NCBI GenBank assembly: GCA_009784185.1
Contig: WRCD01000001.1
Coordinates: 55,255-119,254, forward strand
Source: Bacillota bacterium
Lineage (GTDB): Bacteria; Bacillota; Clostridia; Christensenellales; UBA1242
Length of the DNA: 64,000 nt
Direction: 5' to 3'
Shown here: positions 2 through 16,840 of the stretch, in pieces
Position numbering within the stretch: position 1 is the stretch's first letter
Layout: the number at the start of each line of letters is the position of its first letter
Position numbers and translations under genes: made by a program
The notes under the pieces: generated by a model
Database searches by the model: none
What the model saw: only the letters and a program-made list of their open reading frames with translations
Told to the model about the DNA's origin: nothing

Positions 2-676
2 GTAAAGGATGCGTACAACTACAAGGATATTCAATTTATATTAAGCGATACCGCCGGCATCCGGCGCGGAGAGACTCGCGTTGAAGAAATCGGCATTGAG
101 CGCAGCTACATGGAGATAGAGTCTGCCGATATTGTTCTCGTAGTGCTGGACTCAAGCCAGGGGCTGACTCAAGAGGATGAGAAGCTGCTTAAGCTGGTGG
201 AGGATAAGCCGTGTATTACGGTTTGGAACAAGGCGGATATTTCTAGCGATGGGATTGCTTCGTCTGATGGGGCAGGAAGCAGGGCTCGCAATGACAATGT
301 GGTTTGTGCGCTGTCTTTGCGAGACGGGCAAGCGGAGCCGGCAAACGAAGCAATCTCCCATATAGAAGTCAAAACATCAGCACTACAAAATGTAGGTATT
401 TCCGAACTCAAAGATGCAGTCTATCAAACCATATTTACCGGAAGCACTGCTTTAGCCTCCGACCAAATTATGCTAACCTCGCTAAGACATAAGGCGGCAA
501 TAGAGCTGGCGCTCAATTCGCTTAAAACAGCAATATCTATGGCGGATAATGACGGGCTGGAATGTGTTTCGCTCTATATCAAATCCGCATGGCTTGCGCT
601 TGGCGAAATTACAGGAACCACAAGCAACGAGGCGGTGCTGGATGCTATATTCAGCAAATTCTGTTTGGGGAAATGA
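2..676 (+). CDS. mnmE: tRNA modification GTPase MnmE, C-terminal part (5' end lies outside the window)
   Basis: The frame is open from nt 2. It contains DTAGIR (G3), NKAD (G4) and the family-typical C-terminal FCLGK, and it sits directly upstream of mnmG. It carries a repeat-derived in-frame insert at 241-367. Confidence 0.85.
   Translation, partial: VKDAYNYKDIQFILSDTAGIRRGETRVEEIGIERSYMEIESADIVLVVLDSSQGLTQEDEKLLKLVEDKPCITVWNKADISSDGIASSDGAGSRARNDNVVCALSLRDGQAEPANEAISHIEVKTSALQNVGISELKDAVYQTIFTGSTALASDQIMLTSLRHKAAIELALNSLKTAISMADNDGLECVSLYIKSAWLALGEITGTTSNEAVLDAIFSKFCLGK
241..296. repeat. Type-C palindromic repeat (TTCTA..GGGATTGCTTCG-N25-CTCGCAATGACA), inside mnmE
   Basis: It aligns by eye with the copies at 6080, 8997, 15199 and 16773. 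Confidence 0.75.
311..367. repeat. Type-C repeat, inverted copy, inside mnmE
   Basis: The sequence CTGTCTTTGCGAG...CGAAGCAATCTCCC..TAGAA is the reverse complement of the type-C consensus. Confidence 0.7.
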
Positions 677-687
677 ACAAGCAGGAT

Positions 688-825
688 AAAATTCCCCTCT
701 AGAGAGGGGTGCCCGCTTGCGGGCGGGGTGTGTAAAAAGGCCTTTACGCCACCTTCGGTGTCGGCTACCCCGTCTGCCCTCGCCTCTGCGGCTCGGTCAT
801 CCACCCCTTCGGGGAAGGGGAATTT
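688..825. repeat. Composite A/B palindromic MITE-like element
   Basis: It begins AAAATTCCCCTCTAGAGAGGGGTGCC-hairpin-GGCGGGGTGTGT and ends GGCTACCCCGTC..CCACCCCTTCGGGGAAGGGGAATTT. The termini are inverted. Confidence 0.8.
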
Positions 826-840
826 ATAGGAGACAAACTC

Positions 841-2694
841 ATGGAAAACAATTTTGATGCAATTATAATCGGAAGCGGGCATGCGGGCGTTGAGGCGGCG
901 CTTGCTCTTTCTCGCATGGGACACAAAACACTTATGGTTACGCTTAATTTGGACAGCATTGCGTTTTTAGCTTGCAACCCGAGCATTGGCGGAACGGCCA
1001 AAGGACACCTGGTATGCGAGATTGACGCACTTGGCGGTGAAATGGGCAAAGCGGCTGATGCCTGCACCATAAATATGCGTATGTTAAACAGCGGCAAGGG
1101 TGCAGCCGTCCAAAGTCTGCGGGCACAGGTGGACAAAGTAAAATACCACACATATATGAAAAAAATGCTGGAAAACACTCCTAATTTACACATTAAACAA
1201 GGCGAAACCAGTAATATTCTTACAAAAAGCGGAAAAGTGGTTGGTATTGAACTTGACCAGAAACTAAAGTTTTTTGCTCCTAAAGTAATTGTTGCAACAG
1301 GCGTTTATTTAAACTCGCGCATTATATCCGGCAAATATGTGCGCAATGAGGGGCCAAACGGCTTCAGCAACGCTGCCCTGCTTACTAAAAACCTGATTAA
1401 GCTCGGTTGCAATATAATGCGCTTTAAAACCGGCACCCCGGCCAGGCTGGACGGGCGTACAATTAACCTAGGCGCGCTTGAGCCGCAGCATGGTGACGAC
1501 GGTGTGCGAAGATTTTGTGTGCTGGACAAAAACCCTGCCCTTAATCTGCAGCCATGCTATTTAGGCTATACAAATCCGGAAACGCATGAAATTATCAATA
1601 AAAACCTGCATCTGGCACCAATGTATAGCGGCGGCATCAACGGAATTGGCGCAAGATATTGCCCCAGTATAGAAGACAAGGTTGTGCGGTTTGCAGATAA
1701 ACAGCGCCACCAGTTCTTTTTAGAGCCGGAAAGCATGGATAGCAATGAAATATATCTTCAGGGCATAAGCACCAGTATGCCGGCCGAAATTCAGCAAAAG
1801 ATTGTAAACAGTTGTGCGGGCTTGGAAAAAGCGTGGATTATGCGGTACGCATATGCAATTGAATACGACTGCATAGACTCAACCGACCTATACCCTACTT
1901 TAGAATTTAAAAAAGTTAAGGGGTTGTATTTTGCAGGTCAGATAAACGGAACAAGCGGATACGAAGAGGCTGCTGCGCAGGGGCTAATTGCAGGGATTAA
2001 CGCTGCGCTTGCATTGCAAAACAAGCCTGCGCTGATTATTGGACGCGACCAGGGATACATTGGTGTGCTTATAGATGACCTTGTAACAAAGGGCACAAAC
2101 GAGCCGTACCGGATGATGACTTCACGTGCCGAATACAGGCTGATTCTCCGGCAGGATAATGCCGACGAGCGGCTCACTCCGCTAGGGTTTGCGGCCGGAC
2201 TTGCAGATAAAAAACGAGTGGCGGCACTTAAAAGCAAATTAAAACAAATTGCCGTTTTGGAGTCGGGCTTGGATAAAATACTTGCTCCGTCTGCAAAACT
2301 GAATAGTTTTTTAATAAAAAACGGGCAGCCGGAGGCAAAAAGCGGAATAAGTGTGCGGAATTTGGTTAAGCGGCCGGATATAAATCTTTTTGAACTGAAC
2401 AAGGAGTTTGAATTATTTAATGCCGCTGCAGATATTTTAGAACAAGTAAACACAAGAGTAAAATATGACGGATATATTGCCCTTGAACAAAAGCATATTG
2501 CAGAAATGCGCAAGACGGAAAATCTTTTGCTGCCCGACCTGGATTATAATTCTTTGTCCGGGCTAAGAATTGAGGCCAGACAAAAACTGAACAAGATAAA
2601 GCCTCTTAATCTCGGACAGGCATCAAGAATCAGCGGAGTTTCGCCTGCGGACATTGCTGTGCTGCTGATTTATTTAAAAACAATGAAAAACTGA
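841..2694 (+). CDS. mnmG: tRNA uridine 5-carboxymethylaminomethyl modification enzyme MnmG (GidA)
   Basis: N-terminal FAD motif DAIIIGSGHAGVEAA. Other GidA-typical segments are GGTAKGHLV.EIDALGG, RFKTGTPARL and FFAGQINGTSGYEEAAAQG. An AGGAGA SD lies 7 nt upstream of the ATG. Confidence 0.95.
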   Translation: MENNFDAIIIGSGHAGVEAALALSRMGHKTLMVTLNLDSIAFLACNPSIGGTAKGHLVCEIDALGGEMGKAADACTINMRMLNSGKGAAVQSLRAQVDKVKYHTYMKKMLENTPNLHIKQGETSNILTKSGKVVGIELDQKLKFFAPKVIVATGVYLNSRIISGKYVRNEGPNGFSNAALLTKNLIKLGCNIMRFKTGTPARLDGRTINLGALEPQHGDDGVRRFCVLDKNPALNLQPCYLGYTNPETHEIINKNLHLAPMYSGGINGIGARYCPSIEDKVVRFADKQRHQFFLEPESMDSNEIYLQGISTSMPAEIQQKIVNSCAGLEKAWIMRYAYAIEYDCIDSTDLYPTLEFKKVKGLYFAGQINGTSGYEEAAAQGLIAGINAALALQNKPALIIGRDQGYIGVLIDDLVTKGTNEPYRMMTSRAEYRLILRQDNADERLTPLGFAAGLADKKRVAALKSKLKQIAVLESGLDKILAPSAKLNSFLIKNGQPEAKSGISVRNLVKRPDINLFELNKEFELFNAAADILEQVNTRVKYDGYIALEQKHIAEMRKTENLLLPDLDYNSLSGLRIEARQKLNKIKPLNLGQASRISGVSPADIAVLLIYLKTMKN

Positions 2695-2919: not shown

Positions 2920-2948
2920 TTGAGTTTTATTTATGAGGGTGATATAAT
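2920..2948 (+). promoter_or_regulatory. Sigma70-type promoter of parAB (TTGAGT-17-TATAAT)
   Basis: The hexamers and the 17-nt spacer were read directly from the sequence. Confidence 0.55.
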
Positions 2949-2982
2949 GTCACTGCAATGTTATATTAGAAGGAGAAAAAGT

Positions 2983-3795
2983 TTGGGAAAGATTGTTGCA
3001 TTTACCAACCAGAAAGGCGGAGTTGGAAAAACTACGACCTGTGTTAACCTGGCGGCATATTTATGTGCTTTCAGTAAAAAAGTTTTAATTGTAGACCTTG
3101 ACCCGCAAGGAAATGCCACCACCGGTGTTGGCATAGACAAGAGCAAAGACTTAAAAACACTGTACAACATTATTGACAATGATTGTTCGGCAGCCGAAGC
3201 GGTTCTGGGCACAAATCTTGTCGGGCTGGATATTATTCCGTCTACTGTTGATTTGGCGGGAGCCGAAATTGACCTTGTTCAGATTAAAAGCAGAGAAAAG
3301 GTTTTAAAACGTGCATTGGACAGCTTGAAAAACAGTTATGACTATGTACTTATAGATTGTCCTCCAAGTTTGGGATTGCTGACGGTTAACGCTTTAACTG
3401 CTTCAAATTCAATTATGATACCTATACAATGCGAGTTTTATGCCCTTGAAGGGCTAAGCCAGCTTATGAACACCATAAAACTGGTTAAACAGCATTTGAA
3501 TCCGGAAATAGAAATTGAGGGCGTAATTTTAACTATGAAGGACAGCCGCTCCAATCTGGTTAATCAGGTAGCGGCAGAAATACAGAAATTTTTCGGCAAA
3601 AAAGTGTTTGAGGTTATTATACCAAGAAACATCCGGCTGGCCGAAGCTCCAAGCCATGGACTGCCGATTGTAATTTACGACAACAAGGCTCCGGGAGCCA
3701 TTGCATACCAGGAGCTTACAAGAGAATTTCTAAAACGGAACAATGACAAAGGAACTGTGGTTCCAAAAGAAAAACTGTTTAAAGGAGCTAATTAA
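2983..3795 (+). CDS. soj: ParA/Soj chromosome partitioning ATPase
   Basis: Deviant Walker A KGGVGKTT follows directly after the start. A TTG start at 2983 lies 5 nt after an AAGGAGA SD and downstream of a sigma70-like promoter at 2920-2948. The longer ORF-track start at 2860 would lie upstream of that promoter. Confidence 0.85.
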   Translation: MGKIVAFTNQKGGVGKTTTCVNLAAYLCAFSKKVLIVDLDPQGNATTGVGIDKSKDLKTLYNIIDNDCSAAEAVLGTNLVGLDIIPSTVDLAGAEIDLVQIKSREKVLKRALDSLKNSYDYVLIDCPPSLGLLTVNALTASNSIMIPIQCEFYALEGLSQLMNTIKLVKQHLNPEIEIEGVILTMKDSRSNLVNQVAAEIQKFFGKKVFEVIIPRNIRLAEAPSHGLPIVIYDNKAPGAIAYQELTREFLKRNNDKGTVVPKEKLFKGAN

Positions 3796-6062: not shown

Positions 6063-6079
6063 ATTCACTTCCTGTAGAT

Positions 6080-6136
6080 TTCTATCTAGGGGATTGCTTC
6101 GCTGGAGGTGCTTCGAAGACCGTCTCGCAATGACAG
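6080..6136. repeat. Type-C repeat (intergenic)
   Basis: The sequence is TTCTATCTAGGGGATTGCTTCG...CTCGCAATGACAG. Confidence 0.75.
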
Positions 6137-6139
6137 AAC

Positions 6140-8987: not shown

Positions 8988-8996
8988 GATTCTCCT

Positions 8997-9054
8997 CTGT
9001 CATTGCGAGTCACACCCGGGTCTTCTTCAAACGAAGCAATCCCAATGGATAGAA
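8997..9054. repeat. Type-C repeat (reverse), abutting the SD of the minus-strand membrane-protein gene
   Basis: The sequence is CTGTCATTGCGAG...CGAAGCAATCCCAATGGATAGAA. Confidence 0.75.
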
Positions 9055-9127
9055 GTGCAAACATATTACCACAAAGAAAGAGAATTGTAAAGTGAATAAA
9101 AGTTGACAGCAAAAGTTGGAAAACCTA

Positions 9128-13864: not shown

Positions 13865-16840
13865 ATGGACAATTTCTACAATTACACAAAGTCTGAAATC
13901 TTTAATAAGTTCCGCACGAGCGAATCCGGTTTAACAAACGAGCGGGCGGAGGCTCTGCTCAAAACGCATGGACTCAACAAGTTGGCGGAGGCTAAAAAGA
14001 AACATCCGCTTATATTGTTTTTGGCTCAGTTTAAAGATATTATGGTTATTATTCTGCTTATTGCGGCCGTGGTGGTTGCCGCTGTGGGGCTGTTTAAGCA
14101 GGAATACAACGAGCTCTTAGACGCGGGCATAATTTTAATTATTGTACTATTAAATGCTGTTATAAACTTTATCCAACAAAACAAGGCCGATAAAAGCATG
14201 GAGAGCCTGAAGCGCATGAATCAGGCGCACGCCAAGGTGGTGCGGGGCGGGCAGGCTCGCAGTATCCTTGCTCAAAACATAGCATTAGGTGAGCTAATTA
14301 CGCTAGAAGCGGGCGATATTGTACCCGCGGATATGTTTATAACAAAGGCGCATAGCCTGCAGGTAAATGAGTCTGCGCTGACAGGTGAGAGCCATAGCGT
14401 AACCAAAACTGCTGCAGAGAGGCTGGGGCAAAACGTGGCGCTTGGAGATAGAACCAACATGGTGCATTCCGGCAGCGTGGTTAGTTATGGGCGCGGGGCT
14501 GGAGTTGCCGTACGCACCGGCATGAACACTGAAGTGGGTAAAATAGCGCACGCAATTAATACTGCTCCCGAGCAAACAACTCCGCTTCAGCAGAAACTGA
14601 ACAGAGTAGGAACAGTTATCGGAGTTGGTGTGCTGATAATTGCGGCGTTTATATTTGTGCTTAACGTGCTTGTTAAAGATGCTCATTCTATTTTTGACTC
14701 ATTGCTGGTTGCAATTGCGCTGGCGGTTGCAGCAATACCCGAAAGCCTGCCGGCGGCGGTTACTATAATAATGGCGCTAAGTGTTGGGCGGATGAGTAAG
14801 AAAAACGCCATTATCCGGCGGCTTAGTGCGGTAGAGACGCTTGGCTCATGTCAGGTAATATGCAGCGACAAAACCGGCACGCTTACGCAAAACAAGATGA
14901 CAGTGGTGGAAGTGTTTATGCCGGAAATGTTGACAGTACAAAATTCCCCTTCTCCGAAGGGGTGGATGCCGAAGGCAGACGGGGTAACAGCGGTCAAAGC
15001 AGAGTCCGTGCTGTTGGCCGCGGCAAGGCCGCGACTAGCCGCCGCGCAGAGCGGCGTAAGGGCCTTTAACACACCCCGTCCGCCTGACGGCTGCCCCCGG
15101 CTGCGCGCACCGCGCTTGCCCGCTTTGGCTACAAACAGCGCCCCACGCTGTTTGCTTTACGCGTCGCGCCCCTCTTATAGAGGGGAGTTGAGAAGCGCTT
15201 CTATCAGGGGGATTGCTTCGTTTGAAGGGGCAGGAGGCAGGGCTCGCAATGACAGCGCCCACGAGCTAATCCGCTGTATGCTGCTTTGCTCCGACTCTAC
15301 AGTCAGCGGCGGCAAGGTTATAGGCAACCCTACCGAAAATGCGCTGGTGGAGTACGGGCTGAAGCAGGGATTTAATAAAAAACTATTTGACGAACAATAT
15401 AGGAGAATAGACGAGCTGCCGTTTGACAGTAACCGAAAACTGATGACAACATTTAATATGGTAAACGGCAAGGTGGTTGGCTACACAAAGGGCTCGCCAG
15501 ATAATGTTTTGGACAGGTGTACACATTATTTGCAAGATGATGAGATGCTGCCACTTACCGGAGAAGTTGTTGAGCAAATGAAAAGCGAGATAGTTAGAGC
15601 AAACTCAAAAGCGTTGCGCACACTTGCGTTTGCGTATAAGGAATGTGGCGGAAGCAAGAAGTTTGGCTTTGACAATGAGCAGGGGCTAACTTTTATTGGT
15701 TTTGCTGGTCTAATTGACCCGCCAAGGCCGGAGGTGGCCCAGGCTATAAAAACCTGCAAGGCGGCCGGTATGACTACGGTAATGATTACCGGGGACCACT
15801 TAATTACCGCACTTGCAATAGCACGGCAGATTGGCTTAGCCGAGCGTGAACACGAAGCCATAACCGGCAAGCAGCTGGATGCCATGAGTGATGCGGAGTT
15901 TAAACGCAGGATAGAAAGCATTAAGGTTTACGCAAGAGTCAGCCCTGAAAACAAGGTGCGGATTGTGGATACATGGAAGAGCTTAGGCAAGGTGGTTGCC
16001 ATGACGGGCGACGGGGTGAATGACGCGCCAAGCCTTAAGCGGGCAGATATTGGAATCGGCATGGGCATATCGGGCACGGAGCTAACCAGGCAGGTGGCGG
16101 ATATGGTGCTTGCAGACGATAACTTTGCAACAATTGTGGTGGCGGTACGCGAGGGCAGGCGGATACTGGACAATATTAAAAAAGCCATCCGCTATATGTT
16201 CAGCACAAATCTGACGGAAGTTATTTCAATACTGACGGTTACAATGATTGCGCCCAAACTTACATTTTTATTGCCGATACAGATATTGTTTATAAACCTT
16301 GTTACCGACGGGCTGCCGGCCATTGCGCTGGGCATGCAAAGAAGCGAAAAGGATATTATGAACAGGAAGCCCGTACCCAAAACGGCTGGCCTATTTAGCG
16401 GCGGGCTTGGAAAAAACATTATTACCGAGGCCGCAATGCAAAGCGTTATTGTAATCAGCTTGTTTTTTGCAGCAAACGCCTTGTGGGGAAATGCTGTTGC
16501 CACAACCTGCGCTTTCATTACTCTCTCGCTGATACAACTATTCCACGCATGGAATGTACGAACTCATACAAGCATATTTAAGTCGGCTCCGCACAAAGAC
16601 AGGCTTATGCTGCTGGCATTCGGGCTTGGCCTTGGCCTTAACCTGATGATTGCACTTACGCCGGGCATTGCAGCCGCATTTGGAGTAGTTCCGCTAACCC
16701 TAACCCAATGGGCAGTGGTGGCGCTATGCAGTATGGCAATAATCCCACTGGTGGAGGTGTATAAACTAATAACTGTCTTTGCGAGTCGTTCCGGCAACGC
16801 CCGCAAACGAAGCAATCCCCTAAGTAGAAACAGCAGTTAA
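13865..16840 (+). CDS. P-type cation (Ca2+-type, P2) ATPase carrying repeat-derived insertions
   Basis: Motifs TGES, DKTGTLT, TGDH and GDGVNDAP, with about 10 TM segments. The true start is the ATG at 13865, after a GAGGTGG SD. The ORF-track start at 13622 reads through a palindromic element. Confidence 0.85.
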   Translation: MDNFYNYTKSEIFNKFRTSESGLTNERAEALLKTHGLNKLAEAKKKHPLILFLAQFKDIMVIILLIAAVVVAAVGLFKQEYNELLDAGIILIIVLLNAVINFIQQNKADKSMESLKRMNQAHAKVVRGGQARSILAQNIALGELITLEAGDIVPADMFITKAHSLQVNESALTGESHSVTKTAAERLGQNVALGDRTNMVHSGSVVSYGRGAGVAVRTGMNTEVGKIAHAINTAPEQTTPLQQKLNRVGTVIGVGVLIIAAFIFVLNVLVKDAHSIFDSLLVAIALAVAAIPESLPAAVTIIMALSVGRMSKKNAIIRRLSAVETLGSCQVICSDKTGTLTQNKMTVVEVFMPEMLTVQNSPSPKGWMPKADGVTAVKAESVLLAAARPRLAAAQSGVRAFNTPRPPDGCPRLRAPRLPALATNSAPRCLLYASRPSYRGELRSASIRGIASFEGAGGRARNDSAHELIRCMLLCSDSTVSGGKVIGNPTENALVEYGLKQGFNKKLFDEQYRRIDELPFDSNRKLMTTFNMVNGKVVGYTKGSPDNVLDRCTHYLQDDEMLPLTGEVVEQMKSEIVRANSKALRTLAFAYKECGGSKKFGFDNEQGLTFIGFAGLIDPPRPEVAQAIKTCKAAGMTTVMITGDHLITALAIARQIGLAEREHEAITGKQLDAMSDAEFKRRIESIKVYARVSPENKVRIVDTWKSLGKVVAMTGDGVNDAPSLKRADIGIGMGISGTELTRQVADMVLADDNFATIVVAVREGRRILDNIKKAIRYMFSTNLTEVISILTVTMIAPKLTFLLPIQILFINLVTDGLPAIALGMQRSEKDIMNRKPVPKTAGLFSGGLGKNIITEAAMQSVIVISLFFAANALWGNAVATTCAFITLSLIQLFHAWNVRTHTSIFKSAPHKDRLMLLAFGLGLGLNLMIALTPGIAAAFGVVPLTLTQWAVVALCSMAIIPLVEVYKLITVFASRSGNARKRSNPLSRNSS
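14940..15189. repeat. Composite B/A element (expanded) inside the ATPase coding sequence
   Basis: It begins AAAATTCCCCTTCTCCGAAGGGGTGGATGCCGAAGGCAGACGGGGTAAC and ends ACACACCCCGTCCGCC...GCGCCCCTCTTATAGAGGGGAGTT. Confidence 0.8.
15199..15255. repeat. Type-C repeat inside the ATPase coding sequence
   Basis: The sequence is TTCTATCAGGGGGATTGCTTCGTTTGAAGGGGCAGGAGGCAGGGCTCGCAATGACAG. Confidence 0.8.
16773..16829. repeat. Type-C repeat (reverse) forming the last codons of the ATPase gene
   Basis: The sequence is CTGTCTTTGCGAGTCG...CGAAGCAATCCCCTAAGTAGAA. Confidence 0.75.

What the first reader, a model, noticed from the sequence alone, without database searches (positions are those of the whole stretch)
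241..367. Head-to-head pair of type-C palindromic repeats translated in frame inside the MnmE GTPase domain
Two copies of about 57 nt of the repeat TTCTA..GGGATTGCTTCG-N~25-CTCGCAATGACA lie in inverted orientation at 241-296 and 311-367. They sit between the G4 NKAD motif and the following conserved (T)SA segment of mnmE. They are read through in frame as ..NKADISSDGIASSDGAGSRARNDNVVCALSLRDGQAEPANEAISHIEVKTSA... The same repeat occurs intergenically (6080-6136, 8997-9054) and in the ATPase gene, so this stretch is repeat DNA rather than ancestral MnmE sequence. A universally conserved enzyme appears to tolerate a palindromic insert of roughly 40 codons. This resembles the behaviour described for Rickettsia palindromic elements, but in an apparently unrelated lineage and with an unrelated sequence.
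Basis: partly seen in the sequence, partly recalled or inferred. Interest (0 to 1): 0.6.

Follow-up and report, generated by a model that had tools for sequence, protein, structure and literature searches.

The report
Selfish repeats translated inside MnmE GTPase
A termite-gut bacterium's essential tRNA-modifying GTPase MnmE reads straight through two copies of a small selfish DNA repeat as an extra, probably floppy surface loop; this is a further example of the "protein-coding palindromes" known from Rickettsia, so it is a tidy but not a new kind of finding.

Summary
Window 239-298 (+) and 310-370 (-) are two units of a repeat (TTCTA-N7-GATTGCTTCG-N22-CTCGCAA[T/A]GAC). The 1.16 Mb termite-gut genome has 88 such units. 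Both lie in frame between G4 (NKAD) and G5 (TSA) of mnmE.

None of 19 family or order relatives has this segment, nor do the two closest homologues (58-60% identical, 450 aa). The exact motif occurs 53 times in this genome and is missing from 39 of 40 relatives. The net gain is about 30 aa, not 40, because the loop is naturally variable (12-44 aa).

AlphaFold keeps the MnmE fold (TM 0.8 to solved MnmE) and leaves the insert disordered. All invariant MnmE residues are kept.

New here:
- The same gene carries two more repeat-derived in-frame inserts upstream of the window.
- This is the only pair in the genome with this orientation; the other 17 are the opposite way round.
- The repeat resembles the CGTC-REP / Ssn-related-motif repeats, which flank small GIY-YIG "Ssn" nuclease genes in other phyla. 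A decayed relic of such a gene sits between two units in this genome.

Verdict: RPE-like selfish insertion, a new member of a known kind. This scan had already reported it in other genes of this genome. No expression data exist.

The parts
2..676 (+). 3' part of mnmE (the last 224 codons plus the stop). The gene starts 935 nt upstream of the window, at G000:C1:54320. The full protein is P0001, 536 aa.
   Evidence: Pfam TrmE_N, MMR_HSR1 and MnmE_helical all match. PDB MnmE 1xzp matches at E 1e-75.
227..238 (+). G4 motif NKAD of the G domain, immediately upstream of the insert.
   Evidence: Read from the sequence. K389 and D391 are invariant in the alignment of 71 sequences.
239..298 (+). Type-C repeat unit 1, on the same strand as the gene, read as ISSDGIASSDGAGSRARNDN.
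   Evidence: nhmmer E 1e-14 and exact pattern match at 253-295. The same IAS...RND frame is used by 9 of the 11 sense-oriented intragenic units listed.
299..309 (.). Short spacer between the two units. The two 43-nt cores are 17 nt apart. It may be all that remains of the ancestral loop.
   Evidence: That it is ancestral sequence is an inference.
310..370 (-). Type-C repeat unit 2, on the opposite strand, read through its reverse complement as ALSLRDGQAEPANEAISHIEV.
   Evidence: nhmmer E 4e-14 and pattern match at 313-355 on the minus strand. The same SLRD...NEAI frame occurs in other intragenic units.
374..382 (+). G5 motif TSA, immediately downstream of the insert.
   Evidence: Read from the sequence. 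S438 is nearly invariant. The model places strand beta-6 at residues 433-436.
841..2694 (+). mnmG (gidA), the partner enzyme of MnmE. It is intact at 617 aa and carries no insert.
   Evidence: Pfam GIDA at E 1e-150.
6078..6137 (+). Intergenic type-C unit.
8996..9056 (-). Intergenic type-C unit.
15198..15256 (+). Type-C unit in frame in a 1073-aa ORF.
16772..16829 (-). Type-C unit near the 3' end of that 1073-aa ORF; no long frame spans it.

Best explanation
Two ~60-nt units of a non-autonomous selfish repeat landed, in opposite orientation, in the naturally variable loop between G4 and G5 of the MnmE G domain. The unit is TTCTA-N7-GATTGCTTCG-N22-CTCGCAATGAC-AG. It is the end-repeat of a small element that in other bacteria carries a single-domain GIY-YIG 'Ssn'-type nuclease gene. 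Most reading frames of the unit carry no stop codon: all five open at the conserved boxes are seen in use. Unit length is close to a multiple of three. So the gene stays open and the repeat is translated as about 40 residues of hydrophilic, disordered loop, a net gain of about 30 aa with roughly 10 ancestral codons lost. The loop corresponds to the alpha-4 region of Ras-like G domains. From textbook G-domain topology (not measured on this model) that region lies away from the switch regions that drive GTPase dimerisation, so the enzyme is expected to keep working and the insert to be near-neutral. Shown here: the repeat identity, the in-frame reading, the absence from relatives, the conserved catalytic residues, the preserved fold with a disordered insert, and the link to GIY-YIG genes. 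Inferred: tolerance in vivo, translation of the insert, and the way the units moved. By analogy with the published Ssn work, movement probably involved single-stranded DNA cleaved by the nuclease supplied in trans. The nuclease gene is now decayed or lost in this genome.
For: Repeat family:
- The genome holds 77 regex hits and 88 nhmmer units.
- Window matches number 6 against 0.00 expected by chance.

Lineage-specific expansion:
- The exact motif occurs 53 times in G000. It is absent from 39 of 40 family and order relatives and occurs once in the remaining one.

Absence from orthologues:
- HMMER alignment to solved MnmE structures breaks exactly at residues 393-434.
- The 19 relatives and the closest homologues P0002 and P0003 (450 and 449 aa, 58-60% identical) lack the segment.
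- The loop is 12-44 aa in 70 homologues, median 15, against 46 here.

The gene looks functional:
- All 44 invariant columns of a 71-sequence alignment are kept, including G1-G4 and C533/G535/K536 of the C-terminal CxGK motif.
- The three Pfam MnmE domains match.
- It is the only mnmE in the genome, and mnmG is intact next door.

Structure:
- Mean pLDDT is 81.5, with the core above 90 and residues 398-427 below 50.
- TM-score normalised to the target is 0.80-0.82 against 9hip_A and 1xzp_A.

Not an assembly error:
- A Logan contig of 1074 nt covers L001 1953-3026, across both units, with 0 differences and even depth.

General in this genome:
- 27 units lie in frame in 17 ORFs of 250 aa or more.
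- 8 of 10 such ORFs tested have Pfam domains: MutL, MnmA, LeuRS, ValRS, an ABC-FtsX transporter, Rce1-like, a Gate-domain protein and DUF4097.

Link to GIY-YIG genes:
- In 5 genomes of other phyla, 4 of 9 small GIY-YIG genes have complete units within about 100-300 nt and a fifth has a single box; at least 3 have units on both sides.
- In this genome, a 37-48 aa C-terminal relic of such a gene lies between a (-) and a (+) unit at C2:47118-47354 (tblastn E 2e-8).

Literature:
- Ssn nucleases and their flanking hairpin repeats are described in PMC11893778.
- Intragenic CGTC/GTAG REPs, including RPE-4 and RPE-6, are described in PMC3733652.
- RPEs are reviewed in PMC10969869.
Against: - No RNA or protein data exist for this organism, so translation and activity of the full-length protein are not shown.
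- No close relative (same genus or species) is available, so no true empty site can be shown at the DNA level. The date of insertion is unknown.
- Two 60-nt units would add 40 codons, but only about 30 were gained, so a simple insertion is not the whole story.
- No target-site duplication was seen.
- Single units in this genome are not more structured than shuffled sequence (z about -0.3). This differs from the clean hairpins of published CGTC REPs and SRMs.
- No intact small GIY-YIG gene is present in this genome, which is 94% complete.
Confidence: 0.85

Rival explanations
1. mnmE is a decaying pseudogene. The repeats have inactivated it, and the frame is open only by chance in a shrinking genome.
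For: The genome is small at 1.16 Mb. The gene has taken five repeat units at three sites. No expression data exist (one search listed no RNA run).
Against: All three inserts are in frame and free of stop codons. All 44 invariant columns are kept. The fold is preserved. It is the only mnmE copy. Its partners mnmG and mnmA are retained. The same repeats sit in frame in indispensable genes such as LeuRS and ValRS, so an in-frame insertion is clearly survivable in this genome.
Confidence: 0.07
2. The insert has been co-opted. It acts either as an mRNA hairpin that tunes mnmE translation or stability, or as a new protein surface.
For: The 132-nt region folds more stably than shuffled sequence (-51 kcal/mol, z -2.8). 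It is the only pair in the genome with this orientation.
Against: Canonical pairs of the same family fold far better (z -8.6) and lie anywhere in the genome. The peptide is predicted to be disordered. The same units occur in many unrelated proteins in several frames, which argues against a specific function.
Confidence: 0.04
3. Assembly artefact. Repeat DNA was joined wrongly into mnmE when the metagenome was assembled.
For: The genome comes from a metagenome, and the Logan contigs break at the two upstream repeat inserts (records 1-3).
Against: One contig covers both type-C units and about 400-540 nt on either side with 0 differences and the same depth as the flanks (record 3). The gene continues in frame on both sides.
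Confidence: 0.02
4. The segment is ancestral, lineage-specific MnmE sequence, and the other copies derive from it.
For: None beyond the shared sequence.
Against: The motif occurs in at least 120 stretches of DNA from many phyla. It is absent from the MnmE of all relatives. It flanks GIY-YIG genes elsewhere.
Confidence: 0.01

Closest known systems
Rickettsia palindromic elements (RPEs; Ogata et al. 2000, as reviewed in PMC10969869)
   Same: Small multi-copy repeats are found both between genes and in frame inside unrelated housekeeping genes. They add a peptide without breaking the protein. Orthologues lack them. The host has a reduced genome and lives in association with another organism.
   Different: The host is a Clostridia-class bacterium from termite gut, not an alphaproteobacterium. 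The unit is about 60 nt (111-115 nt as a pair) rather than about 150 nt. Several frames and both orientations are used. Direct sequence comparison with RPE-1 to RPE-10 was not done here.
CGTC-tagged REP superfamily (Di Nocera, De Gregorio and Rocco 2013, PMC3733652), which includes Neisseria dRS3 and Rickettsia RPE-4 and RPE-6
   Same: There is a (C/T)GTC tag followed by a stem that starts with AT (TGTC-ATTGC...), and a tail of CC after ...GCAAT. Units are often paired in inverted orientation. Units occur inside genes, including replication and repair genes; MutL is an example here.
   Different: Published families have stems of 8-9 bp and loops of 4-5 nt. Here only 5 bp (ATTGC/GCAAT) close a 31-nt interior that is variable and, in this genome, not hairpin-like. 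The paper found no dedicated enzyme for CGTC repeats.
Ssn-related motifs (NTS/SRM) flanking ssnA, a single-domain GIY-YIG single-strand DNA nuclease (PMC11893778)
   Same: The head CGTCATT and tail AATCY of the NTS resemble TGTCATT...AATCCC here. The architecture repeat-gene-repeat, with small GIY-YIG genes of about 80-110 aa, was seen in other phyla. It also appears as a decayed relic in this genome. Expansion in symbionts is noted in the paper.
   Different: The paper proposes a role in limiting natural transformation in Neisseria and does not deal with in-frame insertion into genes. This genome has no intact ssn gene. Cleavage of type-C DNA by an Ssn enzyme is untested.
REP/REPIN elements mobilised by RAYT transposases
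   Same: Short repeats, often as inverted doublets, that depend on an enzyme supplied in trans.
   Different: There is no GTAG tag and no RAYT link. REPINs are almost always extragenic, whereas about a third of the units here lie inside genes.

Membership tests
MnmE/TrmE tRNA-modification GTPase | N-terminal TrmE_N domain, a helical domain split by the G domain, and G1-G5 motifs | tested here: met
   Pfam PF10396 (E 3e-32), PF12631 (E 7e-45) and PF01926 (E 4e-30) all match. GRPNVGKS, GTTRD, DTAG, NKAD and TSA are visible in the sequence.
MnmE/TrmE tRNA-modification GTPase | C-terminal C-x-G-K motif | tested here: met
   The protein ends in FCLGK. C533, G535 and K536 are invariant across 71 sequences.
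MnmE/TrmE tRNA-modification GTPase | Overall fold of solved MnmE structures | tested here: met
   Foldseek gives TM-score (normalised to the target) 0.82 to 9hip_A and 0.80 to 1xzp_A. Core pLDDT is above 90.
RPE-like protein-coding palindromic repeats | A multi-copy repeat family with both intergenic and intragenic copies | tested here: met
   The genome has 88 units. Of these, 27 lie in 17 ORFs of 250 aa or more and most of the rest lie in no long ORF.
RPE-like protein-coding palindromic repeats | The copy is in frame and free of stops, the host protein is otherwise intact, and orthologues lack the segment | tested here: met
RPE-like protein-coding palindromic repeats | The insert lies at a surface or otherwise permissive position | tested here: inconclusive
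   The insert is modelled as disordered, with pLDDT below 50. It lies in a loop that varies from 12 to 44 aa among homologues. Solvent exposure could not be measured because the tool returns no coordinates.
RPE-like protein-coding palindromic repeats | The insert is present in the mRNA and the protein | not testable with these tools
   No RNA run holds this sequence.
RPE-like protein-coding palindromic repeats | Sequence homology to RPE-1 to RPE-10 | not tested
   No RPE sequences were at hand. The only link is the indirect one through the CGTC superfamily (PMC3733652).
CGTC-tagged REP / Ssn-related motif | A (C/T)GTC tag, a stem starting with AT, and a CC(A) tail | tested here: met
   The reverse complement of the consensus unit reads cTGTC-ATTGCGAG...CGAAGCAAT-CCCC.
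CGTC-tagged REP / Ssn-related motif | A compact hairpin with a stem of 8-9 bp and a loop of 4-5 nt | tested here: not met
   Only 5 bp can close the unit. The 43-nt cores fold no better than shuffled sequence (z -0.27). Interiors with a stem of 4 bp or more make up 2.6% here against 25% in other phyla.
CGTC-tagged REP / Ssn-related motif | Units flank a small single-domain GIY-YIG (ssn) gene | tested here: met
   In other phyla, 4 of 9 small GIY-YIG genes have complete units nearby and at least 3 have them on both sides. In this genome a C-terminal gene relic lies between a (-) and a (+) unit. No intact copy is present in this genome.
CGTC-tagged REP / Ssn-related motif | Single-stranded units are cleaved by the cognate Ssn nuclease | not testable with these tools
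   This needs a biochemical assay.
MITE (miniature inverted-repeat transposable element) | Terminal inverted repeats plus a target-site duplication | tested here: inconclusive
   Canonical 111-nt pairs have GTCATTGCGAG / CTCGCAATGAC termini. No duplication is visible beyond a palindromic CT/AG. The mnmE pair has the opposite geometry.

The most novel reading that the evidence does not exclude
The repeats associated with Ssn-type GIY-YIG nucleases (CGTC REP / SRM) may be the common agent behind in-frame 'protein-coding palindromes' from Rickettsia to Clostridia. On this reading, the termite-gut lineage acquired the element horizontally, suffered a burst that peppered even essential enzymes (three sites in MnmE alone), and then lost the nuclease. 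The loss of about 10 host codons at the mnmE site would then suggest insertion by a repair or recombination route on single-stranded DNA rather than cut-and-paste.
Probability: 0.3. Interest if true: 0.55.

Novelty: new member of a known kind. Interest (0 to 1): 0.35.

Why it matters
The finding shows that a universally conserved GTPase can absorb about 85 extra residues of selfish-repeat origin at three sites and still look functional. It extends the Rickettsia-type phenomenon to a gut Firmicute with a reduced genome. It also marks the G4-G5 loop, the N-domain loop and the helical-domain loop of MnmE as natural permissive sites, which could be useful for tagging or engineering the enzyme. The link to Ssn-type GIY-YIG genes suggests a candidate mobilising enzyme for a repeat class that was described in 2013 as lacking one. 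The phenomenon itself is already known, and this scan has already reported it several times in this same genome.

Tried and rejected
- RNA evidence: no RNA holder was listed, so nothing can be said about expression.
- Read laying on four termite-gut runs. No contig joins across the insert, so there is no deletion allele. Runs X2 and X3 cover only short parts of the gene at low depth and do not reach the site, so they say nothing about an empty-site strain.
- A regular expression for GIY-YIG ORFs in the 120 cross-phylum loci found none. The association appeared only when starting from the GIY-YIG genes.
- Single-unit hairpin. Folding of the 43-nt cores is not better than shuffled sequence. 'Palindromic' therefore applies to pairs, not to units, in this genome.
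- Target-site duplication: none was seen.
- Intein or other protein-level excision was considered and dropped. The segment is repeat DNA shared with intergenic copies and has no intein features. This was judged from the sequence alone; no dedicated search was run.
- Complex prediction with MnmG was not used, because binding is not the claim made here.

Full report
**What is there**

The window opens inside a gene whose 224 C-terminal codons run to position 676. The window is G000:C1:55255-119254, in a 1.16 Mb, 19-contig genome. I fetched the upstream DNA as L001. The whole gene encodes a 536-aa protein, P0001.
- It has the three Pfam domains of MnmE.
- It matches solved MnmE structures at E 1e-75.
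- Its partner mnmG follows at 841-2694 (GIDA, E 1e-150).

**The observation**

At 239-298 (+) and 310-370 (-) lie two units of a repeat with conserved boxes GATTGCTTCG and CTCGCAA(T/A)GAC, separated by 22 variable bases and preceded by TTCTA-N7.
- The boxed pattern has 6 matches in the window against 0.00 expected from shuffles.
- A profile built from 77 genomic hits finds 88 units in the genome. The two mnmE units score E 1e-14 and 4e-14, as good as the intergenic ones.

**Is it an insert?**

Yes.
- HMMER alignments to solved MnmE structures break into blocks 3-34, 63-197, 251-393 and 434-536.
- In an alignment with MnmE from 19 family and order relatives, and with the two closest homologues found among 5.8 billion proteins (P0002 and P0003, 450 and 449 aa, 58-60% identical), this protein alone has extra sequence at three places.
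- At the G4-G5 loop it has 46 residues. The 70 homologues have 12-44, median 15, and the few long loops are unrelated in sequence.
- So the site is naturally permissive. The net gain is about 30 residues although the repeat DNA spans 42 codons, so roughly ten ancestral codons were lost or overwritten.
- The exact motif occurs 53 times in this genome. It is absent from 39 of 40 relatives, with one match in G005. This is a lineage-specific expansion, not ancestral sequence.

**Is it real DNA?**

The source is a termite-gut metagenome. A 1074-nt Logan contig of the probable source run covers L001 1953-3026, across both units, with no differences and the same depth as the flanks. A mis-join is therefore unlikely. 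No RNA run is available.

**Does the gene still look alive?**
- All 44 invariant columns of a 71-sequence alignment are kept, including the G motifs and the C-terminal CxGK.
- AlphaFold with that alignment gives mean pLDDT 81.5. The core is above 90, and three stretches have low confidence: below 50 at 52-54, 210-244 and 398-427, with block means of 52-57 around 41-60. These coincide with the three inserts.
- The model matches solved MnmE at TM 0.80-0.82 normalised to the target.
- It is the only mnmE in the genome.

- The gene carries two further repeat-derived in-frame inserts upstream of the window. One is a hairpin unit of another family, read as KFPSREGCPVRGGVC (L001 about 1447-1512). The other is a unit of a third kind followed by a truncated type-C 3' box (L001 about 1930-2055).
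- The two other kinds are the two halves of the palindromic element that also fills the mnmE-mnmG spacer (window 688-828).
- Of 18 adjacent type-C pairs in the genome, 17 are (-)(+). These form 111-nt palindromes with GTCATTGCGAG / CTCGCAATGAC at the outer ends and TAGAA-TTCTA at the centre.
- The mnmE pair is the only (+)(-) pair, with a 17-nt spacer. It folds much less well (z -2.8 against -8.6). It therefore looks like two single units side by side rather than one canonical element.

**How general it is**

27 units lie in frame in 17 ORFs of at least 250 aa. Eight of ten such ORFs tested have clear Pfam domains: MutL, MnmA, LeuRS, ValRS, an ABC-FtsX transporter, Rce1-like, a Gate-domain protein and DUF4097. 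Two sense frames and all three antisense frames are used. One sense frame is closed by the TGA in AATGAC.

**What the repeat is**
- The two boxes occur together in at least 120 stretches of DNA from many phyla. There the interior is often a short hairpin with varying stems: 25% have a stem of 4 bp or more, against 3% in shuffles. In this genome the figure is 2.6%.
- I started from PF01541 hits in five of those genomes. Four of nine small GIY-YIG genes have complete units within about 100-300 nt and a fifth has a single box; at least three have units on both sides.
- This genome has no intact small GIY-YIG gene; the only hit is a 663-aa ORF, presumably UvrC. But at C2:47118-47354 a (-) unit and a (+) unit enclose the last 37-48 codons of such a gene (tblastn E 2e-8 and 2e-6). 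This is a decayed autonomous element.
- This matches the published picture. Single-domain GIY-YIG 'Ssn' nucleases cut single-stranded DNA next to hairpin repeats (NTS/SRM, CGTCATT...AATCY) that flank their genes across phyla (PMC11893778).
- The same repeats were classed earlier as CGTC-tagged REPs. That class includes Rickettsia RPE-4 and RPE-6, and its members are known to occur inside genes (PMC3733652).
- Type C shares the tag, the AT start and the CC tail, but not the compact 8-9 bp hairpin. I therefore file it as working like that superfamily and as a probable divergent member, not a proven one.

**Mechanism**

The best-supported reading is selfish insertion into a permissive loop, tolerated because most frames of the unit are open and the peptide is hydrophilic and disordered. 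The closest known phenomenon is the RPEs (PMC10969869). How the units moved is inferred, not shown. The published Ssn work suggests single-stranded DNA cleavage by the nuclease supplied in trans. No target-site duplication was seen, and host codons were lost at the mnmE site, which fits a repair-type route better than cut-and-paste. Rival readings (pseudogene, co-option, assembly error, ancestral sequence) are all much less likely, for the reasons given in their entries.

**Earlier work of this scan**

Earlier notes from this scan already reported the same phenomenon in this genome, in a calcium pump, an ABC transporter, alanine racemase, TruA, NrdG and DnaX. They also named the RPE, CGTC-REP and GIY-YIG links. 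I re-tested the GIY-YIG and CGTC leads myself. I added the gene relic, the Ssn paper, the three-site load on MnmE and the odd orientation of the pair.

**Verdict**

This is a new member of a known kind, of moderate to low interest.

Noticed in passing
L001:1447-1512 (G000:C1:54446-54511, upstream of the window): mnmE carries a second in-frame repeat insert. It is a hairpin unit of another family (AATTCCCCTCTCGAGAGGGGTGCCCCGTTAGGGGCGGGGTGTGT), read as KFPSREGCPVRGGVC in the N-terminal domain. All relatives lack it. Block-mean pLDDT is 52-56 over residues 41-60, dropping below 50 at 52-54.
   Followed up: partly
L001:1930-2055 (G000:C1:54929-55054, upstream of the window): mnmE carries a third in-frame insert of about 40 aa in the helical domain. 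It is made of a unit of a third repeat kind (..GCTACCCCGTC..CCACCCCTTCGGAAAAGGGGAATT) followed by a truncated type-C 3' box (GTCTCGCAGTGACAG). pLDDT is below 50.
   Followed up: partly
window 688-828: The mnmE-mnmG spacer is filled by a ~140-nt palindromic element. Its left and right halves are the same two repeat kinds that sit separately inside mnmE.
   Followed up: partly
G000:C2:47118-47354: A (-) and a (+) type-C unit enclose the C-terminal 37-48 codons of an Ssn-like single-domain GIY-YIG nuclease gene (…IEREKQIKAGSRQAKTRLINKANPEF…). This is a decayed autonomous element. No intact copy is present in the genome.
   Followed up: yes
G000: C4:10831-12636, C5:103149-104354, C15:5747-8281, C16:7369-10122 (loci L024, L027, L030, L031): Type-C units lie in frame in MutL (a full pair in the interdomain linker), MnmA, LeuRS and ValRS.
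   Followed up: partly
whole genome G000: 17 of 18 adjacent type-C pairs are (-)(+) elements, mostly 110-113 nt (modal 111 nt = 37 codons) measured from GTC to GAC. The typical pair length is a multiple of three, which may help in-frame survival.
   Followed up: partly
proteins P0120 and P0051 (MnmE homologues from other organisms): Two distant MnmE homologues have loops of 42-44 residues, unrelated in sequence, at the same G4-G5 position. The site seems to be a recurrent place for length gain. Whether these loops are also repeat-derived was not checked.
   Followed up: no
L001:1276-1443, 2267-2434 and 2938-3201 in runs X2 and X3: Short low-depth contigs identical to this mnmE region occur in termite-gut metagenomes. 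Run X2 belongs to a second study, so the organism seems to recur in termite guts.
   Followed up: no
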